DNA of 64,000 bases, taken from assembly GCA_905178155.1 (NCBI GenBank), contig CAJINV010000004.1:5744828-5808827 (forward strand). Reading direction: 5' to 3'. Positions 7,523 to 48,273 of the stretch are shown piece by piece. Source of the DNA: Amoebophrya sp. A120 (Eukaryota; Protista; Dinoflagellata). Below the pieces are notes generated by a model. That model was not told where the DNA came from and did not search any database. It worked only from the letters and a program-made list of their open reading frames with translations. The translations under genes and the position numbers were made by a program. Each line of letters starts with the position of its first letter. Positions within the stretch are counted from its first letter, which is position 1.

Positions 7523-9708
7523 CTACTTCGGCAACAGCTTGTCTCCGGCGGCGTCGTATGAACTGCAAAAGCATCGCTCTAGTATAAATTGCATTACAAA
7601 TTAGCTCAGCATTACAAATTGAATTTGTAATGCTGATTCACCTTGAGAAAGAGATTTGTAATGCATAAATGCAATGACTACAACGAGTATGATACTTTTG
7701 CACAGGATACGTCGGCTTTTCGTTCGGAGTACATCCCGAAGCAGGCGTGGGCCATGGGAATGGAGTACCCCGTATCAAATGCAAAAGTGTCTGGGTCTGG
7801 AAGAATGCAAGTTTGTCATGCTTGTCTGGCATGACTCGCGCATCTGTGTTTCCTAGGCACGAAAAGTAGGCCTTCTTACCTGTCATGTTGGAAGGCTAAG
7901 GGCAGGGCGTCCCCATGTAAATTATTTCGACAAACAGTAGCCGCATACCCGGTAAACTCTAGCGGAATTTATTGGGCAGTGCGATTTCTACCGAAGAACA
8001 ACCACAGCATCTACTGGGACGGCTGCGACGGAAGATGTGTGGGTGCCCAAGTAGAAATAGTTCTGCGCAACGCCATCAACTAGCACCGAGGGAGAAAAAA
8101 GAAAGGTAGAAAAGTGAGAAGCGAGATACTAAGACACAGCCCCACTTACGAAAGAAACACCCTAAAAAGTGGACACACCTATGCGTAGCAGAGTAAAATG
8201 TCCTGAACGCGGGAGCGCGCGCATGAAGAATCAAGCAAGGACGTGCATGCAAATGGCCGAGCAAGTAAATATATGTAGAGAGTGAAACTCTGGTGAAAAA
8301 ACGGGCAAGCAGGAACCCGGATGGACAAACGAGAACATCATGACCAAACCAAAGACCACAAAAAGCATGACAAACTAGGCCAGTCTGCTACACAAGGTGA
8401 AGCCAGGGTGGAATTTAGTTGTAACCCTGAACGGTAAGCCCATAAAAAATCTAAAGCGCTACACAAAATTTCTATCACTAGACCGGTCAATCCACTTCTG
8501 CCTGTACCGTCTCTAACTCGATGGTTTTCTCTGCCACCCTAAGAAGTGGCAAGTGAATGCATGTCATGCCAAGTAGAGACCACTACGACGCGCAACAGCG
8601 GCGCAAGCCAAGTTTTCATTCCCAGAAGGCAGGAGCCCTCGCATACAAAAGTGCCAGTAACCCTGAACAACATACAAAACAGACAGCCGGGCTGTAGAAA
8701 ACAACAAGGGAAACTGGCAGCGGGAGGGGAAGAGGAAAACCTAGTGTCGTAGCTAGTCGAGAAAACCGGAGGTAGAGTGCTCGCTATTTTCCGCGTCTTA
8801 GTTGGTTGCTCAAGGGTACAGGCGCCGGCTCCACCATGAGCAACCACGCGAAAAATACGTGGATATTACTTTTCATGCAAAATTTCATTTCATCCTTCTT
8901 ACCTGTCATGCAAAAACGCAATAAGTTTCCGATGCGGAATACGTAAGACATGGGAGCCAAAAAATTTGTCATGCATAACTGCGTATTGCAGTGCCTCTAC
9001 CATGCACTTTTAGCATTACAAGCTTCCAGACCCAGAGATATTTGCAATCCATACCCCGCGAGCAGGCAATCGACCACGGCCGTGCCGATCACAATCTGGC
9101 TTTTCGCGGCCGTGTAACCTAGCATTAACGCGGTCAGCGCCCCCACCGACATGAGGAGGCCGAGGTAATAAAGGACACCCAAGAAGGCGACGCAGCACGG
9201 GAGGCAACAACAATTCTCTTTCACGATGGCGTACCAGAAGAGGTGGGTGAAGAAAAGGCCGAGGAGAACGGTGGCGACTACCTGGATTATGATGTATTCC
9301 GCGTTCTTTGTGGTCATCATGCGTCCTCCTGTGCTCTCTTGGTTCTGATATTCGTAACTTCGAAGAAAGAAAATGAGGATCGTTGCACGTTGTAGTAATT
9401 CAGGATTTTTGCTATTGCTTTCTTTTCAGAATTATAAGTACCTGTCCCAAAACGTGTCCAACTAAATGCCCGCCGAAGAGCGCCAGCACCGCGATGCCCA
9501 CAAAGACCTGGTAGACCACCTGCATCCAAAAAATCGTGGCCATACCGAATTCGTATGCGAGCGCGTTCTCATCCTTGCTCCAGGAGAAAGAGAGGTATTC
9601 CTTAAACCGGGTCTTCGCGTCCTTTTTGCTGCTCGCCGGCTGGAACTTCAGGGTCTCGATGAACTCCGTGAACGAAGTCACGTAGCCATTGCACGAACAA
9701 CAACCCAT
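7523..9708 (-). CDS. Multi-pass membrane protein, ~214 aa, 4 exons
   Basis: Exons 9442-9708, 9054-9344, 7710-7767 and 7523-7551 (645 nt, in frame). One GT-AG intron (9345-9441) and two introners. Junctions read ...DCLLAG|YSIPMAH... and ...KAD|AAGDKLLPK*. Several hydrophobic helices. Confidence 0.75.
7557..7709. mobile_element. Introner family A (153 bp)
   Basis: Ends TATGAACTGCAAAAG...CTTTTGCACAGGATA, flanked by direct repeat CGTCG. Removal restores frame. Confidence 0.9.
7773..9053. mobile_element. Introner family B carrying a 1-kb nested insertion (258 bp when empty)
   Basis: TIR TAT-N4-TGCAAAA..TCTGGGTCTGGAAG at both ends. Direct repeat CCCCG at 7768-7772 and 9054-9058. Confidence 0.9.
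7888..8893 (+). mobile_element. 1006-bp insertion with 17-bp target duplication; probable 5'-truncated non-LTR retroelement or SINE-like element
   Basis: CCTTCTTACCTGTCATG is repeated at 7871-7887 and 8894-8910. The insert ends in TTTCATTTCAT and has an open frame at 7889-8083. Orientation is inferred. Confidence 0.65.
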
Positions 9709-16101: not shown

Positions 16102-16207
16102 TTTGATTTTTGTTTTTCTTCGATTTCTCGACTTGGATGCGACAAGGAATAAAGAGGGTCGACGCCCCGTCGCCGTCCCACTCGTCCGTCGTAGATAGAG
16201 TTAAAAA

Positions 16208-17103: not shown

Positions 17104-17965
17104 TTATAATAGGTTTATTAGTGTCTGGCGCCAGCCAAGGGAGTACAGCGCAACTTTTCAAGGGAGTCAAGGGAGTAAGTTAAAAAAGCAGTCGCGCGCG
17201 CCAATGCGATGGCCATATAGCAAAAATTTTTCGCGGCGCGCGCTGCGCGCGCGCGAGTCGACATGTGTGCGCACACCACAAAAATTTTTCGGGCCGCGCG
17301 CTGCGCGCGCGCGCGGCGAGGCACGTGCAACATGTAGGACATACGCCCACATGTGGGAATGTTGCGAAGCATCAATGCGAAGCAGGCTGCATATGCTACG
17401 CGTGTGGGCCTCACACTTGCGGCGCGCTCCGACGGCCGCTGCAACTCTTTCCCGATTGAAGAAAGTCGAAGTGGCCGCTGCAACATTTCCACTTCATTCG
17501 TATTCTCTGCTCGGCATGACGTTGAATCTGGTCACGCAGAACCTCGCGCGAAAGATCTCGATAAGCAAATTGCTGAGGTGGCTGCCTCAACTTCCCCTGG
17601 ACAGCGGAAACTTGACATGGCCACGGCAACAGTTTACGCGGTCCTTCGGCTCCACGCTCTATGTTGCCAGGCAGAGGCCAGGCCGCCCCGGCGACTTCTG
17701 TTTACGGGGGCTACTCTAGAAGCCCTCACCTTCTTCAAGAGGCCAGGACCTTCGGCAGCGAGCCAAAGCCTAAACGCGGCCAAAACTGGGGCCGCAGCGG
17801 GGGGGGCAGCAGGGCCCAAACCGGTGGCCGGTAAATGCGCCCATAGCATGGATTTTTGCGATGATTTTAGGGGAGGCAATTTGTACAAGTTTTATCTTCC
17901 TCCCTTGGCTCCCTTGACTCCCTTCGAAGTTTCACTCCCTTGCCTATAAAATACTCTATTATAAA
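17104..17965. mobile_element. Intergenic MITE-like element with inverted AAGGGAG subterminal arrays
   Basis: TTATAATAG / CTATTATAA ends. AAGGGAG x3 on the left and CTCCCTT x4 on the right. GC-rich core with a duplicated CAAAAATTTTT..GCGCGCTGCGCGCGCGCG. Confidence 0.6.
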
Positions 17966-18124: not shown

Positions 18125-20906
18125 TCATTTCTGCCCCCCCTCCACAACTTCCAGCAAGATCTTCGCGCCCTTGACCTTTTTCCCCTCCTTCTCCGCATTT
18201 TGTATCGGCTTCTTGAGGGCAACGGCCGCTGCTCGCAAAAGCTCGTTCTGGCTGGTTTTGTACGCTTCAATGAGCAGGTACACTCGCGGCGAAAGAACCT
18301 GATAATTTTTTGGTGAAGATTTTTGCGTTTTGCTTTTTTATCATGATCGCTGTCCTCTGCCTCGGGTCGTCGTCGTTTCTCAAAGTCAATAAACAAGACT
18401 GAAGCTCTTGAACAACAAGAGCGCCAGTTCTTCTAATAATTCAAACACGTCTACGTACTAAAATTTTTTATAAACAGTCGTACCATTTCCTTGAAGAACC
18501 CTTCTCCCTGGTCCTCGACATAGGCGTAGAGTGCTTCCGCCAGCACCTTGGACTCCTTCAGCAGCGCTAACAAAATCGGTAGCCCCGCCGAGCTGTCCAT
18601 CAGCAAGGATTTCACCTGGGATTCTTCCTCGGAGAACAACTTCTTGCATAACTCGTCCTCGTTTTCCCTCAAAAAACACCCCGCAATGTCCGCCAAAATG
18701 CGGTGCTGCAGCGCGTTGGAGTAGCCGCCGCACTGCTCGATCGTTTTTTGTAGCAGTGGTGCGGCGTACTTCTTCAACTCCAGCCTGCGCTTCTCCGGAT
18801 CCTTCAACGAGCTGGGGGCGGGTATGGATTGCAAAAGTGTCTGGGTCTGGAAGGTTGGAACTTGTCATGCTAAATCAGAATCATGCAAAAATCTGTGTTG
18901 CATGATTACCAAATGCTGTCCACTTTTGATCAAGTTGAGAGGCAGTTTGTCATGCAGGATAGGCATGATAGTGATCTCACGGAATGTGTCATGCTACGTA
19001 CTCCATTACAGATCATATGGGTCATGCAAAACATGCATGACAAGTCTCAGAATCTTCCAGACCCAGACATTTGTGCAATCCATAGCGGGCAGGCTGATGC
19101 AATGTTCCATCTCGTATGGACTGAAGCGTAGAGTTGTCGCGGGCAAAACGCAGGCGTAGAGGATCTTTTTCACGTAGTTGTTGTCCTGCAGCAGGGAGGC
19201 AAGAGACACGTCGTCCGTTGAAGTGGAAGATTTTTCTCCACCACCGCCATTTGTGAGGATCTCGGCGAGAATCTGCTTTTGCGCCAAAACCGTGTCGTCC
19301 AGAGTCAGTAACAGTCGCAGCACGATCAGGTAGCACACGTTGTTTTGTGCCATGTCCTTGAATTTGCCCTTGAATAATTTCAAAACCTGCTTCTTCTGTT
19401 TCGCGGAGTAGAAGCCCAGCATCTTGCACAGGGCCTCGCTGCCGAACTTCGTCTGCAGTAAATGTGGCACGGCGTCGATCGGGAAACGCTCGGAATCGAT
19501 AAATTGCCGGAGCATAGCGTATTTTTGATTCTGTTCTTGATCTCCTGCTTTGTCATCTTTTTGTTCCAGTTCTTTCTCCCCCACCAGCAGTAGAACCTGC
19601 AGGAAGAGGGCGAGAATGCCGTGGGTGATCGGCTGGTCCCAGAGTTCCTTGTCTGTGCACTTATCCACGAGTTCGGACAAATGGGGTACCAAATGTTGCT
19701 TCAGAACCTCCGTTTCCATCGCCGTCACCTGCGTGCTCAGCTTCGCGTTGCAGTTGTAGGTTTCCTTGTTCATCTGCAGCAGCGAGATCTGGCGCGGGAC
19801 GAGAACCTTGTTGAGTAACAGGTTTTTCGTCTTCTGGTTCAGAAACGCGCAGTTGTACAGGTTGGAAAAGCACTTGCAGCCGAATTTGTGGAAGAAGAGT
19901 TTGGAGAACTTGTTCTCGTTCAGGTCCAATAACGGCTTTATCCTGAGTAAAAACGTCCACACCCCATAGTCAACATGGGAAATCTGCTAGACAAATCTAC
20001 GAACTTAGGTTGCTGCGCATGACAAGTTTGGCCTCGTAGTGTAGTGCTGTTTAGCTCGTTCAGAAGCATCACAAATCTGACCTACTATGCTGATTGGAGC
20101 ATTACAAATTTCAAAACACGATTGGGAATTGCTTCTCAAGGGTCTCCGCATGAGAAACATTTGCCGCCTGCGTTCTTGCATTACAACTATGGCGTGGGGA
20201 CGTTTTTACATATGATAGGCTTCAAAATCTTCTCGATGATCTTCTCCTGCTCCTTTTTCGCGGTTAAAGACATCGGCTGCGGCTTGGAAAAGGATGCATT
20301 TTTGTTCGTTGTTGTACTATCAGCACTGTTGTCTCCGGTTTCGACCTTCGGACAGTACCGCAAAATCTTCTCGACCAGCATTCCTCCCGCGCTGGGGCCG
20401 CAGATCAGGTCCGGGATCTCGTTGACAAAAAAGTCCAGAATTTTGGTCCGTTGGTTCCGGGTGCCGTGCTTCAACATGGCCTGCAGGCACCGGCTGCCGT
20501 CGCTGCTGGTGCCCAGCTGGATCTTGGGCATGTTGGACTTTTTCTCCACCATCTTTATCATGTCCGTCACGAGGCGCTCCGTGTTGCGCGGCTTTTTGCT
20601 GTTCTGCAGCTCATTGTACTTTAAGTTCAATTCATATAGAAAACCAGACTTTTTCTTCTCCGATTTATTGTCCTTCGTCTCTTCGGTGGATTTATTGTCC
20701 TTGTTTGGCGTGTTCTTGTTTCCGCTGGCGGTGGGCGTCTGCTCCGCTGTAGTTGTGTGGTTGTCTTCTTCGTCTTGCACAGCCGTGGTTGTGCTGCTGT
20801 TGTTGTCGGTACTCTCTTGCTTCACTCGCTTGGCGGTAGCGGAAATAGCCCCGGCGTCGGAAGGAGCGGCGCGCTTCTTCATTTTGCTCGGAGCTGGCTT
20901 CGCCAT
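18125..20906 (-). CDS. PUF6: Pumilio-homology ribosome biogenesis protein PUF6/PUM3-like
   Basis: Motifs DGSRCLQAMLKHGT, LFFHKFG, YSAKQKKQVLKLFKG, LDDTVL, SSLKDPEKRRLEL and GAKILLE. Introners 19939-20217 and 18823-19084 plus GT-AG intron 18299-18483 all join in frame. Confidence 0.85.
18823..19084. mobile_element. Introner family B (262 bp)
   Basis: TATGGATTGCA ends. Direct repeat GCGGG. Confidence 0.92.
19939..20217. mobile_element. Introner family E (279 bp)
   Basis: TIR TATC..(A/T)GTAAAAACGTCC.CAC.CCATAGT. Direct repeat GGCTT. Confidence 0.9.
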
Positions 20907-21741: not shown

Positions 21742-22444
21742 GTAGTGAGGTCGTGGGCGTTTTTTTGCCGACCGCAGCCTTGGCCGCGGCTTTGCGTTCT
21801 ATGGGCTCGCCATACCGCCGTGAGTAACGTTATGCCGCACGGTATGGCGGCCACTTGGGAAACGTCGCAAATTTTGGAAAATTTCCGAAATTCCTTTCCG
21901 AAAGCCAGCCCCCATGCTATGGGGCCGATCCGGGTGCCACGGGGGGCGCCCAAAAAGCGAAGAAAAATCGGGCCCATAGCATGCGGATTGGCTTTGCGCG
22001 TGCGGGCCGCTTTTTCTTTTTCGCGTTTTTATTTTTCACGCCGGCGCTTTTTGCAAAGCTTCCCAGGCTCTGAAACCGGCGAAAAGGCGGCCGCTTTCGC
22101 GGCCGCCCAAAATGCTCCGAAATCGCGGCCGTGCCATGCTGTTTCGCTGTTCTGATTTTGGACGCGTTTTTTGCGCGCCCCTTTTTGGGCGCCCCAAATC
22201 GCCAGAAACTAAGGCGGTGGCCGCCTCGGAAGGGCGCCCCTTTTGCCGGCTCCCCTGCGTCGTTTTATCCAGTGCGAATCGATAGTCTTCGACCGGGCTT
22301 GTTTGATGGCAAAGCCCCGTCCGCTTGATAATTATAAATTTTTTATGTCAAAAAACGCCTCCGGTCGCTTGAAAACTGCCGGTCGTTTTTCAGGGTAGGT
22401 GTCAAAAAAACTCCCTGGTTAGAACCGTTCGGTGACCTCACTAC
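21742..22444. repeat. Intergenic GC-rich foldback element (candidate MITE)
   Basis: 11-bp inverted ends GTAGTGAGGTC/GACCTCACTAC. Internal hairpins GCCATACCG..CGGTATGGC and CATGCTATGGG.CCGAT..ATCGG.CCCATAGCATG. No TSD seen. Confidence 0.4.
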
Positions 22445-34900: not shown

Positions 34901-37900
34901 ACGCATCTACCCCTTCCGTGAAGTAATGCGCCTGCCTACACGTTGTTTCATTTTCATGCATGCAAAGCCCACCACTGTTCCCGTTCATTCCTCTCCGTTC
35001 AACCACTGTATTTTGGGTGAGCCATAAAAAAGCCTCTTCATATTCCAAAAATGGTTCTCTGCTTGCTCTAACCCATTTGTCTAAGTTATTTTCGTCTCTG
35101 TTCTTCCCTTCGTCCGACTAGTCAGAGTCGTACTGCGGCTAACCCTGAGTGTAAAACTAAAGTCTAAATCTTCTCAAAACTAGTGCCTAGTAAGTGTCTC
35201 CGCCTCGTTTCTATCTCGCTTATGTCTGTCTTCTCCTTCCAGTCTCCTTCGGTATATCCCGTCGCTCATCCGCTATCCGCTCCTCGTTTGCCTGCTAGTA
35301 TTCGCCTCCGTTCATGCCCCACTGCATCCCGCTCCCGTGGTCCTGGTCTCCGTACCCTCCGTCACCTGTTCCTTTGCCGGTGATCTGCCAACTTTTTTCT
35401 TTTCCCCAGCCCCATCCCCCTTTTCCTCCTGCTTTGCCGTAGGGCATGCTTCTTTTTCCGCCTTTCGTGTGCCAGTGCTCCGCCCCTTCTTTTCCTCCGT
35501 ACGGGCCCGACTTGGGACCGAACATTGGGGGGGGGTAGTGAAACCATTCCGCGTCCCATCCATTCCCTTTTTTCATCTGTTCTTTCCCGTAATATCCCTG
35601 ATCGTTTTTCCCGGTACCCTCTCCCGCCAGTCCTTCGCTTCCGGCTGTATGGTCCGCCCCGGTTTCCTCGTCGTGCTCCTGATCCATCTGCGATTCCTCC
35701 TTCACTCTAGTTGCGGGGTGGGCTCCATTTCCTGTTTCGTTTTTCTCTTCTTTCTCGTCTTCCCCTTTCCCTCCTTCCTGTTGGTAGTAGAAGGCTTCGC
35801 CTTTTCCATCTTTGTTCTTCGCGAGACCTTTCCCGTAGCCTCCCCCTTTATCCGCTTCCCAGCCGTGGCAAAACTCTCCTCCCATCTTGTATTCGCAGTG
35901 CCCTTCACTTTCATTTTGGTAGTGGTACGCTTCTCCGCCCATGCCGGGGTAGTGTCCGTAGCCCGTTTCTTCGGGCCAGTAGTAGCCTTTTCCTTTTTTT
36001 CCGCTCTGGATCTGGTTCGACGTTCCCCAGTATCCCATCCCCCCTTTCCCTGCTTCTTTCTCCCATTCGATCGCCTTTTTCATTTCATTGCTCGGGCGGA
36101 GGTATTGGTCTTCTTTCCACTCCGTCACTTTTCCCGTCCCGATTTGTTTTTCATCGATCTGCTCTCCGGTGTCGCGGAACTCCTCGAACAAGTCGGCCAT
36201 AAGGGCGCCGTCCCCTTGGAGCATCAAAGTGCCGCTACTCCAGAACCTCACGATAGCCCGCTTTTCCATCCACAGCGCCGCAGCTGTTTTGTCGCATCCT
36301 TCTCGCGAATGCATTTGGATCGTATCCGGGTCCTGGTCCGTCAGCTGACCCAAGAACTCCATCAACTGTTCCGCTTCAATGTTTGCAAATTTTGCGTGAT
36401 TTTCTTTGTCGCGGCATGGGCCGGCCGTCGACTTCTTCTTACGTCCCCTCCCCATTTTCCTTCAATTTTTTTCGTTTCTTCTTTCTTCCCCCCTTCCTTC
36501 ACAGCCTCTACTACCTATCACTTGCGCTTTCTTCAGAAAGAATATAATGTCAACTATTGATACTCTTTATTCTAGTTGCGTGGCTATCGATAAACAAAGA
36601 ATGGCCCAAGGCTTCGCTCCAGCTCTATTCTTCTCAAAAAAAAAGATTCTGCCCTTTGTTGTCGCTGTTCGTCCTTTTTATTTATCATTGGGGGCATTTG
36701 CAAGAATTATTTCCGTCATTTCGCTATCTCTATCATTCTCTTTCGTCTTTTCTTGTTGTCGATCTTTCCGCTCATGCAAACGCCGATCGTTTATTGCAAT
36801 TCCATGCTCCTCGGTTTATCTTACCGCACCCCATCACCCGATGTCCTTCCTACCTAGAAGTACGGACGCGGCCTGCCGCGACGGCAGAGCACCCTTGAAG
36901 CGTGGGCAGAGCGTGCGCGCTGGTTTCCAAGGCTGAAACACAGAAGCGCTGTGCGCGGGGACAGGAAGGCAGGGGCAAAAAAGGGCGCAAGCAAGTTGTG
37001 TTCCGAGGCGCAGGTGGGGGCATGGTCCGCCGCCACATGCCAAGGCAGAGGAAAGGCACATTTGTCCGCGGGAGGACAGAGAAAGACGCAGCACGCAACA
37101 GGGTTGCGCAGCGCGATGGACATCTTGGCTTGGGTGCGCTCCTTGCTCGTTGCAAGGTTATTTCGATCCTCTTATTTTTTGCTGCCGCTGCTAGGATTTC
37201 TTGCTTCGCTTGTGATCCTTTTTGCATTTCGTTTCATCTGGGACCTGTCGCGAGGGAAGCGTTACTCTTACTCATTTTGATCCTTCGTCCCCGGCTTCAT
37301 ACTCGTCCTCGTGTGAAAAGTTTCGGCTCTCCTGGCTCAGCATCCTCGCCTTGTATTTTCAGGCACTGGCAGTTTTTTCTGCTTCGACTTCTTCTGCATC
37401 TCCTTATTTTTCATTTTTTCATCCTCAAAACACAACAACAAAAATAATTCAGTCTCTTATTCCCTCTTGTCCATACTTCGGCTCCTGAATTCAGATAATT
37501 AAGCTGCGAATTCTCGACGTCATGGGAGCTCTCACCTTCCCATTTGTTTTCATATTTCTTTATCCATGCCGTGCTTGCTTTTCGTGCTGCTGCCTCACTT
37601 GGTAGCGAAACAACAGCACTACTTTGCTGGCCTCGGAGGGAAATGCTTTTCGCTTCTTCGTATCTTCCATCTATTTTCGTTATGGGTAACGTCGGTCCGA
37701 ATTTGCGGTAGTGTCAAGCCCTTCGTGGTGAAGACGCGGCTGCTCCGCGCTGCAGTCCGTCTTGTACATATTTACCCTTCAGCTAACTTCTATTTTTTGC
37801 ACTAGCTTCCGTCTCTTCTTTATCCGCGTTTTGTGCCGACTGCTAGTGTACATCTTTTTTTTTTTTTTTTTTTTTTTTATATATATCCCTTTTTTTTTTT

Positions 37901-40754
37901 TTTGCACTGCGCCGACCGCGCCCGGTCGTGGCTAGAGCTTTTTCTGTTAAAATTATGTATAAAAAGAAACTCGTCGTCGGCTACAACGAAAATAGGTGCT
38001 ATGTCTATTTCTCTATCGTTGCCGCGGTCGGTATGCTACTGCCCCTCAGCATGAGTACGCAGCAGCACACCTTTTCAGCTCGCACGGTGATGATAGTCCT
38101 GCTTTTCTTTATGTGTAGTAGCTTCGGATTTACCTTGTAAAATCGAACTTTTTCTTCCTTCTTCTCTTTTTTATCTAATATCTTTGTTGCTTCCGACGTA
38201 GCTTATAGCTTGCTTTCGCATGCTGCTATCCCGTTGGTGCAATTTCAAATCATACACTTTGCGATAAATATTGCCTTCGATATTAACCCGGAGAGTCCAT
38301 TTCTCGCTCATCGATGTAGCGCGACCACTCTTCTTCTCGATCTTCTTCTTTCGTGGTTCCAACCGTATCAGGTCGGTGCAGATTAGCCTCTTCATAGTTG
38401 GTTCTATGCGTTCTGCTGTCTTAATGGGTTGACAGTAGGTCGATCAATATCGTGACTTGCAGGAGAGGACTGTCGAACGACCTCTCTATTTCTCTTTTCG
38501 AAAAGAAAAATACTTAGAGGGCCCCCGTCGCTGTTTCGTCTTTCCATCTATCCGTGTAGCTTGCTCAACCGCTTATGATGGTGTTGGCAGTGTGCCCCTC
38601 AACCGCTCGTAAAACAAAAAATAAAACAAATAGCACTTTCTTCTTTTTCTTCACAGATGTAAACCATTTTTATTTTCCAGACTGCACGGCTACTATCTTG
38701 TGTAGCGATAAAAGTTGAGTCGTGCGGCGAGAAAAATGCTGGATGTGCTCCGGGAAGAAGCCTCGCCATCTACAGCATAACTCATGCGCAGCTTCCTCTT
38801 CTTTTTCGTACGAGTAGTGTACTCCGTCTGTTCTATCTCTTTTTCGAATTTGATACACATCAAAACAAAACCTCCCGTCATCTCTGAAGAAACTAAAAGA
38901 GCCGCTGTCTTAGTCGTCGCGCTCGCGCCATCTACAGCACTTTTCTCCTCTGCTTTGCTACGCTGATAAGGCATTTGTCATGCGGAATAGGCATCAAGAA
39001 GCTCTCAAAAAATCTGTGATGCTAGGGCATGCATCACAGACATCAGGGATCATGCAAAACGTGCATGACAAGTGTCAGAATCTTCCAGACCCAGACATTT
39101 TTACATTTGATAGAATCCGCGGGCGCCCCGGTGCAGAGCTGCATGTCGCGGAGCCCCTGGATTTTCTTGTTGGGCGCCCCGAGGACCAGACGCTTCCAGT
39201 CGAATACCGTCTTGATGCGGGGCAGCTCCTTGTCTTCCGCCCCGGGGCTGGGTCCGGTCAGCACCGACTGCAAAAACCCGTCGGGCAGTTTCAGCTCGTA
39301 CTCCAAATCCGCCGCCCACGCGCAGGCGTCGGCCTGAACATCGTAGCCTTTGAATCCTTGTTCCGCGGAGTCTTTGGCCACGTAGGGGTAGTACCGGACG
39401 TAAAGCGTGTATCGCAAGAAAAAACTGATTCACCGTGCACATGTGAAGATGTTGCGGAGGATACAACAACAACGAAATAAAGTGCTTGTCTTCCTACGCA
39501 TGCAAGACCGCCAAAGATTGGTAGCTCTGTTAATATCCTTAGATAGCTCGCCTTCTTCAAGCAAAATTGTACTTGTGTCGCAACAATACCCTTGCAAATA
39601 AGTAAATCATCACAGTTGTGAACCACTTTTCCCCTACGATAGCATCAGCAAGCAGGCTTTTAGCAGCATCATGTACTTTTCGACCTCTTTATGAAAGTGC
39701 ACAACTCCCCCTCCCCCTCATTTGTAATGCAAAATACCTAATTTACGCATTGGCTCTAAGGACTGTTGGCATCACAAGTTCTGGCAGCCCAAATAACACC
39801 ACACTCCTGTCCAAATTTATCACGCAAAACCCGTATTGGGTATTCTTGCTGATGCTGACGCTTGTATTGCTGTTCATGCAATACAAACGAGGGGGAGGGG
39901 GAGTTGTGCACTGTCATACTCTTTGATGTTCAAGCCGCCCGACTGATCTTTGTCGCACAGTTGGATCAGGAAGGGTCCGAGCGTTTTCTTCTGGCCGCAG
40001 TAGAAGAGAAAGTCGTTCATTTCTTCCTCCTATCAGATGCAAATGTGTCTGGGTCTGGAAGAATGCAAGTTTGTCATGCTTGTCTCGCATGACTCTGGAA
40101 TCTGTCATGCATGAGCAGGAAAGCAGCCTCTTACCTGTCGTGCAAAGACGCAGTTTGTCAAGCAGGAAGCGAAACACGTAGGAGCTCAGAAACTTGTCAT
40201 GCGTGGCTGCGACGTAACGCAGTGCGCCCGCCATGCACGAACTAGCATCACAAGATTCCAGACCCAGACATATTTTCAGTTCATACCTCCCCCTTGATCT
40301 CGCTGCTCTTGTCCTTGTCCACCATCATGAAAGCCTCCTGCAACTCGCCCTGTTCCCAGGGCTCCAGGGCGACGCCCTTTCGGTCCAGGATCAGCTTCTT
40401 CAACACTTTTTCCGCGTCGGGTAGGTCCCGCTGCCCGCCGGATCTGTCACGCGCCCAAGTTTTCCACCCAGTCAGGTTCTGAGAGCTGGAGTTCAGCGAC
40501 TGCGGGTGGTCGAGCAAAGTCTGGAGCTGTTCGAGCTCCGCATCAGTTAATTTGCCGTCCAAGTTAGAATCGAACGTGTTGAACAGCGCGGCTAAGTACT
40601 CGTCGTTCTGCTCCGATTTGCCCTGTTCCGACACCTCCGGCAGTTTCTGCGGGGGCACAACGCGCTTGGAGGAAGAGGAACTGGCGAAACACAAGGAAAA
40701 ACACTTGCCGGCCGCGGCTTCGCCGGCGTTGTCCAAAATATCGCACGGGTTCAT
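22973..40754 (-). CDS. EF-hand + HExxH zinc-metallopeptidase-like fusion protein, highly fragmented gene spanning 17.8 kb
   Basis: Three EF-hand loops (DSNLDGKLTDAE, DKDKSSEIKGEE, DKDQSGGLNIKE), then FHELYHLID...DTEWRALHPPEFRY...YGMSNVREDKAC. Eleven introners and GT-AG intron 25382-25580 join in frame. One further intron between ~24070 and ~24420 is unresolved. Confidence 0.75.
23048..23327. mobile_element. Introner family E (280 bp)
   Basis: TATCCTG(T/A)GTAAAA ends. Direct repeat AAACG. Confidence 0.9.
23595..23760. mobile_element. Introner family A (166 bp)
   Basis: TATGCA.TGCAAAA.TATCGTACT ends. Repeat TGTCT/TGTCC (4/5). Confidence 0.88.
23797..24022. mobile_element. Introner family D (226 bp)
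   Basis: TIR TATGA(A/G)AGTGCACAACTCCCCCTCCCCCTCATTT. Direct repeat CTGGT. Confidence 0.92.
24452..24614. mobile_element. Introner family A (163 bp), opposite orientation to most copies
   Basis: The TATCCTG end is on the left. Direct repeat CCAAT. Confidence 0.88.
24827..24982. mobile_element. Introner family A (156 bp)
   Basis: TATGCA.TGCAAAAG ends. Direct repeat TTTCG. Confidence 0.9.
25047..25337. mobile_element. Introner, divergent family (291 bp)
   Basis: TATGG...TCTCAAAC...CTTACATT inverted ends. Repeat TCTTT/TCTTC. Removal gives KFE|EMFGIEL. Confidence 0.75.
25631..25940. mobile_element. Introner family C (310 bp)
   Basis: ~50-bp TIR TATGGAAGCGTCAG..TTGAAAT.G.CAAAGTTGAAATGATTTGT.ATGCA. 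Direct repeat GTCGT. Confidence 0.92.
26124..26193. repeat. 35-bp tandem duplication near the retroelement 3' end
   Basis: GTGGCG(C/T)TAGAACAGATTTAGCCTCTGCCAATACC x2. Confidence 0.9.
26939..33256 (-). CDS. Retroelement ORF2: apurinic endonuclease - reverse transcriptase - degenerate RNase H-like region (~1898 aa after removing the 621-nt insertion)
   Basis: APE motifs WNING, FYRRP, GGLN (expected GDxN), TIDF and SDH. RT motifs AAGMDG, LDASNYFNSI, LIQG, YVDD and LKILG. The two ORF halves (30602-33256 and 26939-30094) are in the same frame and join as KLRPC|FIKLII. Confidence 0.88.
30033..30647. mobile_element. 615-bp TIR element inserted in the RT coding sequence
   Basis: ~22-bp imperfect TIR TCGC..AGAGCC..CCCCGGCG. 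Direct repeat CACGGG at 30027-30032 and 30648-30653. Internal 12-bp repeat array. Confidence 0.85.
30365..30605. repeat. 12-bp-period minisatellite (TTAGACAA(A/G)AAA-like) inside the TIR element
   Basis: Tandem units such as AAATTAGACAAG, AACTTAGACAAA and AAATAGACAGGA. Confidence 0.85.
33651..34700 (-). CDS. Retroelement accessory ORF, 349 aa, basic/charged, probably coiled-coil
   Basis: Intact ORF upstream of ORF2 on the same strand. K/R/E-rich. No recognisable domain. Confidence 0.65.
   Translation of the reverse strand: MEIAPLRFRPPPKTNIEGEKKQKKEAQNEEKTNTTKDGRAEDWLEALINEKRKDALEIQRKSQEEDRQERGGMLIDELISQRGKETEVTARARPDTTIAEINKKRGKMSARILKNLAAVRRKRKTPMTKWLRRTPERDAEGKLLTIKQRQQMAKAMRLKAGAEKMRALFTAATKDEETNAEVEDERDKKRALGIVRLRRMSRIQWKIHIGDYMRRWREKEKKKKKKRKEEKKSQEIKDAKNTTSKNARKRLATALESDEEYARWQERARELIATKSYKGSAALVELSRTERMEHEKKRIQRAAEAQTKRMKETRKNESRAQRAERLGKKKEKRKEKREGSNSEAESAAE
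35295..36455 (-). CDS. Retroelement ORF1-like protein, 386 aa: small N-terminal fold plus Gly/Lys/aromatic-rich low-complexity tail
   Basis: IVRFWSSGTLMLQG resembles the TBP-like/RNase HIII-N-terminal hairpin motif. The rest is G/K/Y/W-rich and disordered. Confidence 0.65.
   Translation of the reverse strand: MGRGRKKKSTAGPCRDKENHAKFANIEAEQLMEFLGQLTDQDPDTIQMHSREGCDKTAAALWMEKRAIVRFWSSGTLMLQGDGALMADLFEEFRDTGEQIDEKQIGTGKVTEWKEDQYLRPSNEMKKAIEWEKEAGKGGMGYWGTSNQIQSGKKGKGYYWPEETGYGHYPGMGGEAYHYQNESEGHCEYKMGGEFCHGWEADKGGGYGKGLAKNKDGKGEAFYYQQEGGKGEDEKEEKNETGNGAHPATRVKEESQMDQEHDEETGADHTAGSEGLAGEGTGKNDQGYYGKEQMKKGNGWDAEWFHYPPPMFGPKSGPYGGKEGAEHWHTKGGKRSMPYGKAGGKGGWGWGKEKSWQITGKGTGDGGYGDQDHGSGMQWGMNGGEY
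39410..39641. mobile_element. Introner, family F-like, degenerate (232 bp)
   Basis: TATCG.A...AAAA.TG.TTCAC ends. Repeat GCGTG/GCATC (3/5). Removal gives LM|LYVRYYP. Confidence 0.7.
39690..39918. mobile_element. Introner family D (229 bp)
   Basis: TATGA.AGTGCACAACTCCCCCTCCCCCTC ends. Direct repeat CTCTT. Confidence 0.92.
40031..40285. mobile_element. Introner family B (255 bp)
   Basis: TGTCTGGGTCTGGAA TIR. Direct repeat CCTCC. Confidence 0.9.
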
Positions 40755-41214
40755 GGTATAAATAACTCAAGGTTGATGAGTTTATTATTCAGTGTGTTTT
40801 TTAACTAGGTAGGAAATTTATGTTCGGGTGATTATGCGTATGAATCCTCGACGTAAAAATTGCTTCTACAAATTAGAAAGTTACACGACGATTAATATTT
40901 GACAAAATTCTTATCTTCGTCGGTTGCGCTTGCGCATTCGCGTACGCGTTGCGTTGCTTGCGATGTATGACTGAAAGGTCATTGCAGCACTTAGTGCGGT
41001 TTTCTTTACATAGTGATGAACCAGAATAAATTTACAAACTTGAAACTGCCACAACGATTGCAGGTGGTTGTATAGCTTGTTATCCTGCACTGTGCGGTGG
41101 TACAGGCAAAAATACAACTCCGCATAGAAGATGAAAACCGATAGTACCAGCAAGGCCTCAAGAAGAGGTGCACGACCGTCAAGAACGGTTTCACTAGAGA
41201 TGTAGGCACTGCTT

Positions 41215-41314
41215 CACTATCACTATCACTATCACTATCACTATCACTATCACTATCACTATCACTATCACTATCACTATCACTATCACTATCACTATCA
41301 CTATCACTATCACT
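41215..41314. repeat. (CACTAT)16 microsatellite
   Basis: Perfect intergenic hexamer run. Confidence 0.95.
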
Positions 41315-42300: not shown

Positions 42301-45300
42301 TTAAACGAAGATCGGTGTAGCTTCGTCGGGTGCCGGTTCTTCGAGTCCTTCTCTAATATTATTCCGCCCATCTTCTACAACATGCGCCCGAGTAGACAAA
42401 GCCTCCTGATCTAATATTTCTTCCAGCGGGTTTTCCAGCGTGACTGAATCCAGCAGGTCAAACGTCACATTCGCCGTCCCGATCTGCGCTAACGGCAAGC
42501 CCCAGAAATCCGCGCGGAGGGATTTGCGTCCCTTGACGAACAGGCGGAGGTAGCCGAACGTCAAAAAGCGCTTGGCCGACCAGTTTTGCACCACCTGATC
42601 CTTGTTCGTGTCCAGCCACGCCCCGGCGCTGCCAATCGTAATGTGGGTGGTAGCGAGAAACTTGTTCTTCTTCTCTTCCTGCTTGCCGATAACCTCGACC
42701 CTTGTGTGGTTGAACACCGGCCACGTGCGCTCGTACTCGTGGTAGTGACCGGCCAGGAAGAGGCTCACCCGGTACTTTTTCAGGAGCGGGTCCAGCGCGT
42801 CGGCGAGGTGCGAGCCCACAATGTAGTCCGGCATGAATTTGGAAGAGTCGTAGGCCGGTCGATGGGAGGTGATTATGATCCAGGGGAAGTTCTGCCTTAG
42901 TCTGCTCGTCGTGGTGGATGAGGCTCTTGTGCGACGATCTGCTTCTGATGTGACAACGCCAACAGTTTCCTCTTCATGATGTTGTTCCCCCACCCCACGG
43001 GCCTTCTTCAAATCCTGCTCCAGCCACTGGTACTGGACGGACCCGGGCGTGTAGTCGTGCTCTGAACTGATTTGGATAACGTGCACGTTGGTCATGTCGA
43101 AGCTGTACCAAAAAATGCCGTTTCCCGTCGGCGGCGGGTTCGGGAACCGGTGCACGACCGGAACGGCGCATTCGCCCTTGGAGTCGTTGTTATGGATTGC
43201 AAATATGTTTGGGTCTGGAAGTAGAGTGGAACTTGTAATGCTGTCTGCGGATTCTAAAAATATCTGTGTAGTTGCATGAGCAACAAGAGGACTCGGCTCT
43301 TGGCACGCGGAATGGGCGTTTTTCATGCGTAATTAGCATCAAGAGGCTCTCCAAAAATCTGTGTTGCTAGCACCAGCATCACAGACCTCACGGGTCATGC
43401 AAAATGTGCATGAATAGCCTCGACCCTTCCAGACCCAGACATTTTTGCAGTTGATAGTCGTGGTAGTCGCCCCAGTCCGGGTGGAACCCGAAATCCCGAT
43501 GCTTGTCCGTCCCACGACCGTCGCAGGGGAAATTGAAACTTTCCCCCTTGTTCGGGGTCACCAAACTGGGGTCCTTGCGTATCCCACGAAAAAAGTGCTT
43601 ACAGTTACACCTTTGTAGTCAATGTAGCAACACAAATTTCTCTGCATATGAGTGAAAACTTGTAACGCAGAAATCCTACGGGAAATCACCTATGAAACGA
43701 GGCTCCCATGCATACCCGGGATGACAGTGACAGAGCTCGTCTGTCTTGCTTGGCCTGCAACACAATGTGGAACTGTAACACATTTTTCTTGCGATATTGC
43801 GGCAGTCCGCCCCGGCGGAGAAGTAATCGTACTCGTGGTTTCCGTATGAACTGCAAAAGTATCGCACTCGTATAAATGCATTACAAATTTCCTCAGCATG
43901 AGAACTGCTGTTTTACCTTGAGGACAAGATTTGTAATGCATAAAAGCAATTAGTACGAGTACGATACTTTTGCACAGGATATCCCGATGGACACCATGTA
44001 CGGCATGCGCGCGGCAATGGTGGTCTGGATCTGCGTCTGCCACAGCTTATTCTCTGCAAAAATATCGCACTCGTAGCCGTACTAATTGCAGACACGCATG
44101 ACAAATCGCCTTCCTAAGCGGAAACAGCATTACAAATGCTCTCTGTCATGCTAAGCTAATTTTTTGTAATGCACTTCATACTACTAGCACGATACTTTTG
44201 CAATGCATACAGCTCCCAAATGTAGCCCACCGACCAGGCATAGGCCAGATCGCCGAAGTGCAGCGCGAGACGGGGTGGCGGTGGTTGTGGTCGTGCTGGT
44301 CCTCTCGCTGATGTGCTGGACGATTGTGTTGCTGCAACCACTGCCGTCTTTACAAGTTGTAGTTCCTCGCTAGTGACGACGCCTTGGTTGTTCTTGCTCC
44401 TCTGCAAGCGGTTCGCTCGGTGCTGGCGCTCTTCCTGGCGCAGCAGCAGCAAGGGTGAAACTGACGAAGTGTGCTGTTCTTTTTCTTTTAGGACCACATC
44501 GTATTGCGCCATCAAGTTTCTCAGGTTGATGTTGACCGCGTCCGCCCCGGGCGTGTGCGTGCCCCGTTCGTCGAAGCCCGCTGCCGCGTTGTCGTGATAC
44601 AAACTACCCCATTCCGCCCCGTGGTCTGCGTAGGCCAGGAAGTTCCACTCCGCATCCGGGTCTGGCTGCAGCGGCGTCGTATCAACTGTAAAAGTGTCTG
44701 GGTCTGTGTCTGAACGCCACTCAGACAGGCTCGATAGACGACATGATCATTGGTTGATCGTTGAGAACTCACGATGTGACTACGGTCGAAGTGTAGTACA
44801 CGAGTGAGAACTCGCGATGTGACTAGAACTCACGATGTGTAGTTCTTGCTCTTACCGTAGGTGTAGCACAAGTCGGCCTCTTCGCAGTAGTTGTAGTCGC
44901 TATTCGCATTAGAAGATGCAGAAGTAGAGCTGTTCTTATCGAGAGCATCCTTGATTTGGGATTGGACGTCCTCGATGGTGACAAAAACAGAGCCTGGCTT
45001 GCTTTCGTCCTTGTCTTTTCCAGATTCCGTTTTGTCCCAGTCAACAAGCTCTTTCTCGATTTCTTGCCAGGTCTTCGGTGGTTTTGTTCGTAACCTGCTG
45101 ACTACGGGATCGAAGCACCTCGGCATTCCACCGAGGAGCACTGCTCTCATGCGAGATTCCATAATCGGTCCTTCCGGGCAGGTTTCGGGTAACAAGCGAG
45201 CAAGACGGAACTTCTCTGCTACCCACGCCTCGAGACCCATTTTCTTCGGGTCCCAATTTTCCTGCGTGAGTCTTTGTTCCGTCGTGGTCTTGTCGTACTC

Positions 45301-48273
45301 GGACTGTGACTCGCCAGCCCACCGCTCTAATTCCGTCAAAAGCTTGATGATATCATTTGCGTTGATGCCGTTGCACCGCTGAAGAGCCGCGCCCTTCAGC
45401 TGCTTCTTGACCTCTGCACCTAACGCGTGCAGCTTCTTTGTCTGCACGGGGTCCAGATGGATTTCCTTTCCTTTCATCTTGTCGGCAATTTCTTTCGTTA
45501 CCGCAAGACGCTCTATCTCGCCCTCGACTTTGAATTTCCAGTCTGGATATTCGGTCTTCTGGTCGAGAGTTGGAACCGATGCGCGAACTACTAAATTTCT
45601 AAGCATGGTCTCGGAGAACTGGTCGGATTGAAGCTTGCGCTGCTTCTCGTTCTCGGCTTGTGCGAGACGAGCTTCCTCCTGTTGCTGGTGCAACATTTCT
45701 TTGTGTCGTCGCTCCGTTGCTTCTTTTTCTTCCTTGTGTCGCTTTTCGTCGTCCTTTTTCTTCTTTTCCGCCGCTTCGCGGTCGGCCGTCGCTCTTTCTT
45801 CCGCCGCTTGGCGTGCTTCTTTTTCCGCTTGCATCTGCTCGCGATGCCTTCGCTCCTGCGCGTTGAATTGCTTCTGGAATTGCTGCTGTTGCTGCGCTTG
45901 CTGCGCCTGCATCTGCTGTAGCTGCAGTCTGCTTTGTTCCGCCTGCGCCACCATCATCTGGCTGATCACCATCATGATGTTGGTGTTGTCCGCAGCGCCT
46001 TGTTGCTGCTGCGCGGCGGTTGAGTTTTGTAATGGGCCTCCGCCCAGATTAGGTAAATTCGATGCGGAATAAGAGCCATTTTGATTGAAATTCAAGTTTT
46101 GATTTGTATTGAAATTGGATTGATAATGGGCCTGGAATTGCTGTCCTTGTCCACCAGTACTGCTAGCAGCTGCGTGTTGCATTCCACCAAGACCGGTGGG
46201 TTGCTGCTGCATCCCGACATTCGGATTTTGCTGTTGCGATTGCAAACCCGCATGCTGCTGCTGCAGCAGTCCATCTCCCATGTCGCCAAGAGAGGTGGTG
46301 TCGGGCTGGTGGTGGTCGCTCGCAGCGGGAAAACCCCCGCCAGTACCGGTCGGATCGCCGTCCCCGGTCGCCATGCTGCACCGAGAGATTGGCGATTTAC
46401 TCCCGATGGGTGTGCGTTTTGCTCGTCGGCTCGAGGGTTAGGAGAATGTCTGAACGCCACTCAGACAGGCTCGATAGACGACATGATCATTGGTTGATCG
46501 TTGAGAACTCACGACGTGACTACGGTCGAAGTACAGATTTGCATTGCGTGTAGCATGCGTGTTCGCGTGCAGTGTGTTTGTGTTCTGAGAGCATTCAGCT
46601 CGTGCAACTCCTAAGCCTGACAAGGTTCCAAAGTGAATCGATTGATTGAGGTCGTGCATTAGCATCGGGATTCAAGATGCTTCGTCGTCTAAACACGACC
46701 TGAGTACATCATCATCTTGCACTGAAATGTGCTCAAACAGGAGCTATGGACATCATCATCATCTGATCATCTTCTGTCCAAACGGGACCAAACAGGAGCG
46801 AAAACCTTCAAGGAACATCGGGACTACAGTCGTCCAACAGTCTGGAAGAATCCAACTTGTCATGCTGATTTTGGATTCTAAAAAAATCTATATTGCATGA
46901 GCAGCAAAGAGAGTCCAAGTGTTGCAGTACGGAGACGGAGAGAGCATTTGTCATGCGGAATAGGCATCAGGGAGCCCTCTAAAAATCTGTGATGCTAGGG
47001 CATGCATCACAGACTTGAGGAGTCATGCAAAATGTGCATGACAAAGCCGGCAATCTTCCAGACCCAGACATTTTTACATTTGATACGTCGCGAAGGTAAA
47101 CCAGTCGGATTTCACGTTTTCCGCCTGAAAAACGCGGTACTGGATCGCCGCCGCTGAGGGAAAATGCGGTTCCCAGTCGAGAAGTACAGAATGGAAAAAC
47201 CCGGTGTCACGAAATTGGTTCGGGCCCGTGATGTTGCTGGGGGCGCCACACATGTCGGAGGCCGAGTAGAAGTGGCTGGGGTGTTTCGCGGTGGCGAAGA
47301 CGGATTTAGTAGAGGAGGACGTTGTTGTGCCCGCGCCGCACAACTCCGCGCAGCGAAACTCGACGGTAGGAGGGTGAACTGCAACTTTAGCGCTGTCAAC
47401 ATGAACTGGTTGATCATGCTGTCGTGCTACCGCCTGCACCTGCTGCTGCTGCAGCGCCGTGTTGTACTCCGTTCCGGAATTCCAGGTAGCCCACATGGCG
47501 GAATCGCCCGTCTTCCTTCCCGCGAAAGACAAGTGCACCTGCGTCGGCTCCAGTTTGGAATACTCGAAGGAGATTAGCTCCGATTCCCCGAGGCAGACTA
47601 TGGTCTTGTCGCTAGTCCGACTGTCCTTCATTCCTCGAAAGTAGCGCAGCTGGTACTTGTCACGCATGTTCAACAGGCGGAAAGTGAAGCTCGTGCGGGA
47701 TTTAATATCATCTCCTGTATTTCTGGCGGTTCGTTTGTCGTGTTTCGTCTTCACCTTCACGGGTAAAAAGTCAACGTACTCGTCGTGCTCCGAGTCCGCC
47801 GGGCTGTAGATCCCCACCCAGTCCTCGTCGCTTGTGTCGGCGGTAAGAGCGGAAGCTTCATCAAGCGCCAAGTCATTTGTACTAGCAGTTTTCATGCTGT
47901 TCATGGGTGATGGATTTCTCGGACTCCACTTCACCTCTACCTCGTCCAACGACCGCTTCGGACTGGGATTCTTGATGGTGAACTGAAATTCAGCTTTACA
48001 GGCAGAGGCATCGAGAGGACTGTTCTTCATCTTCTTGTCGGCTTTCTTGCTTTTGTCAAAAAACGGCACTGCGTCTGTGTGCAGGTGCGGAACACCGGCG
48101 GCGCCACTCCAGGGCTCCGTGCGGGGCCGCGCGATGTTGGTTGCCGTGACCACATTGATCACTTGAAATGCACCTGCCATTAGTGAAAAACAAAGCAGCA
48201 GGGGCAGGCTCGACATCAAGTGACGCCCCAGCCGCAGCCGGGACGATATTCCTTGCTGGCGCGCGTCCGTCAT
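42301..48273 (-). CDS. Purple acid phosphatase (metallophosphoesterase with N-terminal FN3-like domains), probably secreted
   Basis: Motifs YADHG, GDLAY, GNHEYD (formed across an introner junction), DSKGECAVP, TSHRP and GHYH. N-terminal hydrophobic segment. Five introners are removed in frame. Confidence 0.9.
43191..43456. mobile_element. Introner family B (266 bp)
   Basis: Family B TIR. Repeat GTTGT/GTCGT (4/5). Confidence 0.88.
43580..43796. mobile_element. Introner family F (217 bp)
   Basis: TATC.CA.GAAAAA.GTG.TTACAGTT.CAC ends. Direct repeat TTGCG. Confidence 0.88.
43845..43981. mobile_element. Introner family A (137 bp)
   Basis: Family A TIR. Repeat TTCCG/TCCCG. Splits the GNHE metal-binding motif. 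Confidence 0.9.
44048..44209. mobile_element. Introner family A (162 bp)
   Basis: Family A TIR. Direct repeat CAGCT. Confidence 0.9.
44707..46839 (-). mobile_element. Internally deleted Ty1/copia-like LTR retrotransposon (gag only)
   Basis: TG...CA ends with 5-bp TSD GTCTG (44702-44706 and 46840-46844). Full LTR 46447-46839 and an ~86-bp LTR remnant at 44707-44792. No pol. Confidence 0.88.
44830..46374 (-). CDS. gag: Copia-type Gag, Gln-rich N-terminus, truncated at the zinc knuckle
   Basis: YPDWKFKVE and LLGGMPRCFDPVVSRL resemble copia gag blocks. The ORF ends at CYTYGK, running into LTR-derived repeats. Confidence 0.75.
   Translation of the reverse strand: MATGDGDPTGTGGGFPAASDHHQPDTTSLGDMGDGLLQQQHAGLQSQQQNPNVGMQQQPTGLGGMQHAAASSTGGQGQQFQAHYQSNFNTNQNLNFNQNGSYSASNLPNLGGGPLQNSTAAQQQQGAADNTNIMMVISQMMVAQAEQSRLQLQQMQAQQAQQQQQFQKQFNAQERRHREQMQAEKEARQAAEERATADREAAEKKKKDDEKRHKEEKEATERRHKEMLHQQQEEARLAQAENEKQRKLQSDQFSETMLRNLVVRASVPTLDQKTEYPDWKFKVEGEIERLAVTKEIADKMKGKEIHLDPVQTKKLHALGAEVKKQLKGAALQRCNGINANDIIKLLTELERWAGESQSEYDKTTTEQRLTQENWDPKKMGLEAWVAEKFRLARLLPETCPEGPIMESRMRAVLLGGMPRCFDPVVSRLRTKPPKTWQEIEKELVDWDKTESGKDKDESKPGSVFVTIEDVQSQIKDALDKNSSTSASSNANSDYNYCEEADLCYTYGKSKNYTS

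What the first reader, a model, noticed from the sequence alone, without database searches (positions are those of the whole stretch)
7773..47085. All three retro-type insertions sit inside family-B introners, two at the same offset
Seen: the 1-kb insert (17-bp TSD), the 12.9-kb LINE (11-bp TSD) and the copia-like element (5-bp TSD) are each inside a family-B introner. The ten family-B copies make up only ~2.6 kb of ~48 kb of host DNA. None of the ~27 other introners, and no intergenic region, carries a recognisable retroelement. The two non-LTR-type TSDs end at nt 115 (7887) and nt 114 (26090) from the same introner end, although the target sequences differ. Inference: retroelements may target introners by structure or by a bound protein, as safe havens in a compact genome. 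With n=3, purifying selection alone is a real alternative.
Basis: partly seen in the sequence, partly recalled or inferred. Interest (0 to 1): 0.85.

Follow-up and report, generated by a model that had tools for sequence, protein, structure and literature searches.

The report
Retrotransposons hiding inside mobile introns
Three retro-type insertions do sit inside one family of mobile introns in this marine-parasite genome, and related DNA shows many more such insertions at scattered positions and in a second intron family, likely because these introns are packed with short sequence motifs that the retroelements cut and prime on, rather than because of one fixed position.

Summary
All three inserts lie in family-B introners, with TSDs of 17, 11 and 5 bp; two TSDs end at nt 115 and 114. 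The genome is Amoebophrya-like (DVNP gene, TIR introners).

The interpretation needs changing. In 146 loci from a related assembly (385 kb unique) I found 13 more inserts in B introners and 2-3 in family D, with junctions from nt 62 to 230.

The 1-kb element has two further copies, at nt 128 and 188. All 3 of 3 join their constant end directly after TGTCAYG, with variable TSDs and truncation. That motif is 16-fold denser in B introners than outside introners. Of 10 tailed inserts, 7 share at least 3 nt between tail and target (0 of 200,000 simulations).

Best reading: sequence-guided target-primed insertion into motif-rich introners, kept because these are likely spliced out. The closest known case is Xenopus Tx1L targeting Tx1D. 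B-exclusivity and one fixed offset are not supported. The LINE's own site lacks the motif, and the flanks of other LINE and LTR copies remain unknown.

The parts
7773..9053 (.). Family-B TIR introner (B1/B4 subfamily) in a minus-strand gene, 5-bp flanking direct repeat, interrupted by the 1-kb element
   Evidence: TIR pair; alignment
7888..8893 (-). 1-kb element 'S': 5'-truncated non-coding piece of a non-LTR-type element. The constant 3' end is at 7888, directly after TGTCATG. The last ~28 nt (8866-8893) resemble the target site and are likely filler.
   Evidence: 17-bp TSD; two further copies with the same 3' junction; a contig continues at least 255 nt beyond 8864 with other letters; no ORF similarity to LINE proteins
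25977..39112 (.). Family-B introner (B3/B6 subfamily) interrupted by the 12.9-kb LINE
26091..38953 (-). 12.9-kb non-LTR retrotransposon (LINE), 11-bp TSD, 3' end at 26091 with a short ATCGC repeat; upstream ORFs 35295-36461 and 33651-34721
26939..33262 (-). ORF2 in two pieces (30602-33262 and 26939-30097): endonuclease-like N-terminus and RT with YVDD
   Evidence: 6 homologues; second piece aligns to homologue P0007 from residue 846, E 4e-34; Exo_endo_phos E 4e-4 on P0007; Exo_endo_phos_2 E 0.082 here
30033..30647 (.). TIR-bounded element with 6-bp flanking direct repeat and internal 12-bp tandem repeat, interrupting the LINE RT
   Evidence: TIR scan; homologues are continuous across the site
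44680..47085 (.). Family-B introner inside a purple-acid-phosphatase-like gene, interrupted within its TIR at nt 27
44707..46839 (-). Deleted LTR retrotransposon: full 5' LTR 46447-46839, gag-like ORF 44830-46437, only the last 86 nt of the 3' LTR (44707-44792, 85 of 86 identical), no pol; 5-bp TSD
   Evidence: nearest Atlas cluster has zf-CCHC in 33% of members, score 0.92
18823..19084 (.). Uninterrupted family-B introner
40031..40285 (.). Uninterrupted family-B introner; carries the empty site of the 1-kb element
43191..43456 (.). Uninterrupted family-B introner
61510..62121 (.). Two uninterrupted family-B introners in reverse orientation (61510-61771, 61854-62121)
62184..62332 (.). Half family-B introner with no right TIR in the window; a decayed copy or an unresolved insertion

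Best explanation
Many unrelated retroelements lie inside this genome's TIR introners, likely because non-LTR elements nick and prime on short motifs (TGTCATG/CATG cores and T-tracts) that introners carry in many copies, and because an insertion there would be spliced out with the introner and so survive. Shown: the 1-kb family joins its constant end directly after TGTCAYG in 3 of 3 copies, at three different offsets, with variable TSDs and variable far ends; most tailed inserts of other families share 3-4 nt between tail and target. Inferred: target-primed reverse transcription, with an endonuclease nick followed by annealing of the RNA tail to the nicked strand, which makes the 1-kb family in effect introner-specific, as Tx1L is for Tx1D. 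The 114/115 match between the LINE and the 1-kb element is likely coincidence. The LTR insertion in the TIR is likely plain safe-haven survival.
For: S family: window nt 115 (TSD 17), L039 nt 188 (345 bp, 97% identical, TSD 13), L007/L008 nt 128 (about 71% identical over 247 nt, TSD 21); all junctions TGTCAYG^TTGG. These were all the distinct hits of the element in 146 loci plus the window. Chance per strand-position in B introners is 0.0047, so 2e-5 for the two copies found after the first. Motif density: 8.5/kb in B, 4.4-9.5/kb in other introner families, 0.53/kb outside introners. L038, another family with an (AATG)n tail, also sits at TGTCATG^. Tail-target microhomology is at least 3 nt in 7 of 10 tailed inserts, total 26 against a null mean of 3.7, reached by 0 of 200,000 simulations. 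Three unrelated poly(A) inserts lie at the T-tract 56-57 nt from the TIR end. A location-blind scan for direct repeats of 13 nt or more gave 5 clean TSD-flanked inserts in 55 kb of B introner and at most 1 candidate outside introners (shuffled null about 0.8 at 15 nt or more); p 0.003-0.011 for B, 0.03-0.12 for all introners. Intergenic DNA in the window carries TIR-bounded elements, so it tolerates insertions.
Against: The 12.9-kb LINE site lacks TGTCAYG and has 0 nt microhomology; L069 has 1 nt. S has only 3 copies in hand, and all loci were fetched through a B-TIR pattern, so B is oversampled. S carries no ORF, so its endonuclease is unknown and no link to the LINE was found. The commonest TGTCAYG positions (nt 40-49) hold no S copy. 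Enrichment over non-introner non-coding DNA is modest once all introners are pooled (p 0.03-0.12). No other copies of the LINE or LTR element were found in the loci, so their preferences rest on one insertion each. Splicing of an insert-bearing introner was not shown.
Confidence: 0.6

Rival explanations
1. Safe haven only: the elements insert with weak, generic preferences, and only those landing in neutral spliced DNA survive. Introners are simply the largest neutral pool, and B is the most abundant long family.
For: Introners are about half of the non-coding DNA in the loci (93 kb against about 89 kb). Pooled-introner enrichment is p 0.03-0.12, and B against other introners is p 0.06-0.21. 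It fits the LTR insertion and the LINE, whose sites show no motif. Tail-target microhomology is generic to target-primed reverse transcription (established knowledge).
Against: It does not explain 3 of 3 S junctions plus L038 at TGTCAYG^. Intergenic DNA carries other mobile-looking elements.
Confidence: 0.2
2. Structure- or protein-guided targeting at a fixed position of family-B introners, for example the apex region between the inverted arms or the edge of a bound protein.
For: Window nicks at nt 114 and 115 in copies 61% alike with different sequence; a third at 113 (L038); 5 of 16 junctions at nt 99-128 and 5 of 16 at nt 201-210.
Against: S itself uses nt 115, 128 and 188. The clusters coincide with conserved motif positions. 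D introners are also hit.
Confidence: 0.13
3. Hitchhiking: a few old insertions were copied along when the host introner transposed, so the nested copies are not independent events.
For: A published A120 family has TIRs, LTR-element homology and several near-identical copies (PMC12130899, passage).
Against: The three S copies differ in host subfamily, offset, TSD length and truncation point; every other insert family was seen once.
Confidence: 0.05

Closest known systems
Xenopus laevis Tx1L non-LTR retrotransposon targeting the DNA transposon Tx1D (PMC6719617 and PMC1950540, passages)
   Same: A non-LTR element inserts at a specific sequence inside a DNA-transposon-like repeat as a safe haven.
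   Different: Here the host repeat is an introner inside coding exons; the target is a short motif repeated within and across introner families, so offsets vary; many unrelated families use the same hosts. Clade membership was not tested.
Amoebophrya introner elements (Farhat et al. 2021, PMC7789003; passages, sections 5 and 11)
   Same: IRs starting TAT-N7-AAA as described for strain A120, short direct repeats, MITE-like; the paper notes LTR and non-LTR elements in the genome.
   Different: In the parts I read, the paper does not describe retroelements nested in introners; its intron set was limited to 40-1000 bp.
Amoebophrya A120 introner families of Gozashti et al. 2025 (PMC12130899; passages; 21 of 58 A120 rows of supplementary file 8)
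   Same: Reports introners attributed to non-LTR and LTR elements, and family 38 with TIRs plus Copia/Gypsy homology. Some TIR families of 148-305 bp have LINE or LTR hits and multi-kb coordinates.
   Different: Read there as retro-derived or novel introners, not as nested insertions ('nested' occurs 0 times in the main text and in 13 of 14 supplementary files). That these are nested inserts is my inference; I could not see the sequences or figures.
L1-type target-primed insertion at T-tracts (5'-TTTT/AA consensus; PMC1950540 passage)
   Same: Three poly(A) inserts sit at a T-tract with 3-4 nt tail pairing.
   Different: The downstream base is G or C, not AA; the families are unrelated to one another by blastn.

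Membership tests
APE-type non-LTR retrotransposon (12.9-kb insert) | N-terminal APE endonuclease in ORF2 | tested here: inconclusive
   Pfam Exo_endo_phos_2 E 0.082; homologue P0007 Exo_endo_phos E 4e-4, below cut-off. WN.NG, T.D and SDH motifs are visible (motif identities recalled).
APE-type non-LTR retrotransposon (12.9-kb insert) | Reverse transcriptase with Y.DD | tested here: inconclusive
   YVDD present and shared with homologues; no Pfam RVT hit; no PDB hit with the profile.
APE-type non-LTR retrotransposon (12.9-kb insert) | No LTRs, TSD of about 5-20 bp, simple-repeat 3' tail | tested here: met
   11-bp TSD, two ATCGC units at the 3' end, no terminal repeats
Non-LTR / target-primed insertion (1-kb S element) | Constant 3' end, variable 5' truncation, variable TSD length | tested here: met
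   3 of 3 copies: lengths 1006, about 340 and 976; TSD 17, 13 and 21
Non-LTR / target-primed insertion (1-kb S element) | Poly(A) or simple-repeat tail, or an encoded RT | tested here: not met
   No tail at the constant end; no ORF similarity in the pieces held
Tx1-clade target-specific elements | RT phylogeny within the L1/Tx1 clade | not tested
   No named references were available; the homologues are unnamed; S has no RT
Tx1-clade target-specific elements | Sequence-specific insertion into a repeated element | tested here: met
   For S only: 3 of 3 at TGTCAYG^ in introners; not shown for the LINE
Tx1-clade target-specific elements | Endonuclease nicks the target in vitro | not testable with these tools
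   Needs biochemistry
Ty1/copia LTR retrotransposon (2.1-kb insert) | TG...CA LTRs and 4-6-bp TSD | tested here: met
   393-bp LTR, 86-nt partner 85 of 86 identical, 5-bp TSD
Ty1/copia LTR retrotransposon (2.1-kb insert) | Integrase before RT in pol | not testable with these tools
   pol is deleted in this copy
Ty1/copia LTR retrotransposon (2.1-kb insert) | Copia-type gag domain | tested here: inconclusive
   No Pfam gag hit; no longer homologues; single-sequence fold pLDDT 36; Atlas zf-CCHC lead
Amoebophrya A120-type introner element | IR starting TAT-N7-AAA with 3-5-nt direct repeats at exon boundaries | tested here: met
   against section 11 of PMC7789003; reading frame is continuous across the 5-bp repeat

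The most novel reading that the evidence does not exclude
The 1-kb S family is a retrotransposon specialised on introners. It recognises the TGTCATG motif shared by all introner families, so it always lands in DNA that the host splices out, even in the middle of genes. Introners would then be the main reservoir of retroelements in this compact genome, and some published 'retro-derived' or 'TIR plus LTR' Amoebophrya introner families would be nested insertions.
Probability: 0.45. Interest if true: 0.72.

Novelty: new variant of a known kind. Interest (0 to 1): 0.52.

Why it matters
Retroelements that target other transposons are known (Tx1L into Tx1D), but I found no report of one that targets introners (searches; open-access library only). 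If true, intron-generating transposons open a new niche inside genes for a second tier of parasites. That could explain multi-kb introns in a compact genome and would mean some introner family classifications need checking for nesting. The claim is directly testable on an existing chromosome-scale assembly.

Tried and rejected
No whole genome is held for this window and the loci are not searchable as handles, so the census rests on 146 loci from a related assembly.

Homologue searches: LINE RT half, none at E<=0.001; gag, none among longer proteins; PDB sequence searches, nothing meaningful; gag fold unusable. The LINE and LTR element had 0 hits in the loci by blastn and tblastn. Three look-ups of earlier findings returned nothing. 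No RNA holder was listed on record; run X9 laid almost nothing.

A TSD+tail scan at 10 nt or more (40 rows) was dominated by chance and introner-motif matches. Outside-introner candidates L006, L053 and L056 were inspected and none was convincing. In the scan at 13 nt or more (78 rows), I set aside long repeats outside introners as tandem or segmental duplications, coding repeats or chance, by eye.

Rows dropped before the insert count: of 13 partial B orphans, L009 and L065 (locus end), L019b and L028 (diverged or expanded introners) and window 62184 (unresolved). Non-B partials L104, L116 and L132 (locus end), L114, window 54854 and window 55905 (diverged). 12 of 15 C, 3 A, 3 D and 1 B orphans had no library hit and could not be judged, so non-B inserts are undercounted.

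Rejected: B-exclusivity, a single fixed offset, hitchhiking for S, the 48-kb denominator. A weak Conantokin Pfam match (E 0.002, below cut-off) on a lysine/glutamate-rich LINE ORF is spurious.

Full report
Setting. The window encodes a DVNP protein (Pfam E 1.7e-16) and is full of 130-320-nt elements with terminal inverted repeats and 4-5-nt direct repeats inside coding exons. Their TAT-N7-AAA termini match the signature that Farhat et al. 2021 give for Amoebophrya A120 introners (PMC7789003, section 11). The organism is therefore inferred to be an Amoebophrya-like syndinian. No whole genome was available.

Observation. Eight complete family-B copies and one half copy were found, plus a degenerate tenth seen by eye. 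Three carry inserts, with exact TSDs of 17 bp (7871-7887 / 8894-8910), 11 bp (26080-26090 / 38954-38964) and 5 bp (44702-44706 / 46840-46844). The TSDs end at nt 115, 114 and 27. The first two host copies are only 61% alike, and both TSDs fall in the variable central spacer. Empty versions of both sites exist in intact copies (12 and 7 of 162), so these are true insertions. About 34 of the 48 kb of host DNA is ORF-covered; introners make up 6.3 kb, B 2.4 kb, and other non-ORF DNA at least 7.4 kb. The window alone is therefore suggestive, not decisive.

What the inserts are. The 12.9-kb insert is a divergent LINE. Its ORF2 has endonuclease-like motifs and YVDD and six unnamed homologues. It is split by a 615-nt TIR element at 30033-30647, across which the homologues are continuous. 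Pfam support is weak. The 2.1-kb insert is an internally deleted LTR element with gag only; copia versus gypsy cannot be decided. The 1-kb insert (S) has no ORF similarity. In one run's contigs it is laid at depth 127 against about 45 for unique DNA, and in another run a contig continues past 8864 with other letters. This suggests a few copies of a longer element; the tool warns that depth is no copy number.

Wider sample. A scan with a B-TIR pattern gave 146 loci from a related assembly (416,552 bases, 385,287 unique), a subset of about 420 matching stretches. They hold 157 intact and 5 long B pairs, and 24 intact and 2 long D pairs; there were no long pairs among 27 A, 11 C and 10 E. With 8 of the 13 partial B orphans judged to be inserts, there are 13 inserts in 55 kb of B and 2-3 in 38 kb of other introners. 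The B excess is not significant (p 0.06-0.21), and non-B detection was less sensitive. So inserts are not confined to B.

Offsets. Sixteen insert junctions mapped to a common orientation lie at nt 27, 62, 67, 68, 99, 113, 114, 115, 128, 188, 201, 201, 205, 206, 210 and 230. There is no single offset. There are clusters at 113-115 and 201-210, which coincide with conserved motif positions.

The signal is sequence. S has two more copies: L039 (97% identical over 345 nt) and L007/L008 (about 71% over 247 nt). All three have the same constant end joined directly after TGTCAYG, at nt 115, 188 and 128, with TSDs of 17, 13 and 21 and different far ends. The chance per position in B is 0.0047, or 2e-5 for the two later copies. 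The motif occurs at 8.5/kb in B, 4.4-9.5/kb in other introners and 0.53/kb elsewhere, so an element with this preference lands mostly in introners of any family. L038, an unrelated insert with an (AATG)n tail, uses the same site at nt 113. Across 10 tailed inserts, 7 share at least 3 nt between tail and target; the total of 26 against a null mean of 3.7 was reached in 0 of 200,000 simulations. Three unrelated poly(A) inserts sit at one T-tract. A location-blind search for TSDs of 13 nt or more found 5 clean inserts in B and at most 1 candidate outside introners (null about 0.8): p 0.003-0.011 for B, but only 0.03-0.12 for introners pooled.

Against this reading. The window's LINE has neither the motif nor microhomology, so its match to nt 115 is either chance (0.6-2.5% a priori) or a structural effect that I cannot exclude. 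No other LINE or LTR copy occurred in the loci, and their genome-wide flanks remain unknown. S has three copies only, sampled around B TIRs. Splicing of insert-bearing introners was not shown; contigs guessed to be RNA skip an uninterrupted D introner (19933 to 20218).

Mechanism. Shown: nesting, TSDs, constant and variable ends of S, motif junctions, tail-target overlap. Inferred from established knowledge of target-primed reverse transcription: an endonuclease nicks at the motif, the RNA tail pairs with the nicked strand and primes cDNA, and a second nick 8-21 nt away makes the TSD. Inferred: the enlarged introner keeps its ends and is still spliced, so the insertion is nearly neutral.

Comparison. 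It works like Xenopus Tx1L, which targets the DNA transposon Tx1D (passages of PMC6719617 and PMC1950540). Tx1 membership was not tested. Gozashti et al. 2025 (PMC12130899; passages, part 1 of file 3, supplement searches, and 21 of 58 A120 rows in file 8) list A120 introners with LINE or LTR homology and a TIR-flanked family with Copia/Gypsy homology, without calling them nested. Six library searches (listings only, apart from the four papers named) showed no report of retroelements targeting introners; subscription journals are not covered.

Verdict. It is a new variant of a known kind. Interest 0.52.

Noticed in passing
window 30033-30647: A TIR element with a 6-bp direct repeat and an internal 12-bp tandem array interrupts the LINE RT, so nesting runs both ways. 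Its termini are not of the TAT type; whether it is spliced is unknown.
   Followed up: partly
all introner families, window and loci: The motif TGTCATG / TGTAATG / TGTGATG recurs several times inside every introner family in both orientations (4-9.5 per kb against 0.5 outside). It may be the transposase- or chromatin-protein-binding site; function untested.
   Followed up: partly
window 17156-17928, 57693-58111, about 21800-22400: Intergenic TIR-bounded or high-depth repeated elements (the 21.7-22.4-kb bin has summed contig depth 17,896 against about 50); not introners, no hits in the loci.
   Followed up: partly
window 48652-48944 and 50532-50794: Two copies of a ~290-nt intergenic repeat, 74% alike, downstream of neighbouring genes; a paralogous UTR or an old mobile element.
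   Followed up: partly
window 37793-37908: Long T-run (poly(A) on the LINE's strand) with an 11-bp direct repeat around 94 nt inside the LINE's 2.5-kb 5' region; the 12.9-kb insert may be composite.
   Followed up: no
window 51612-52421 and 53970-54620: DVNP gene (Pfam E 1.7e-16) interrupted by a family-A introner; a second lysine-rich ORF nearby has a similar-looking C-terminus.
   Followed up: no
window 62184-62332: Half B introner with no partner TIR, followed by apparent small exons and GT donors; likely a decayed introner reusing a canonical donor.
   Followed up: partly
L073 4552-5699; L020 from 3068; L115: Non-tailed inserts in introners: an 850-bp repeat-rich insert in a D copy, a GC-rich repeat in a B copy, and a 36-nt insert with an imperfect duplication ending in CATG in a D copy.
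   Followed up: partly
window 41214-41314: (TCACTA)n microsatellite of about 100 nt in intergenic DNA.
   Followed up: no
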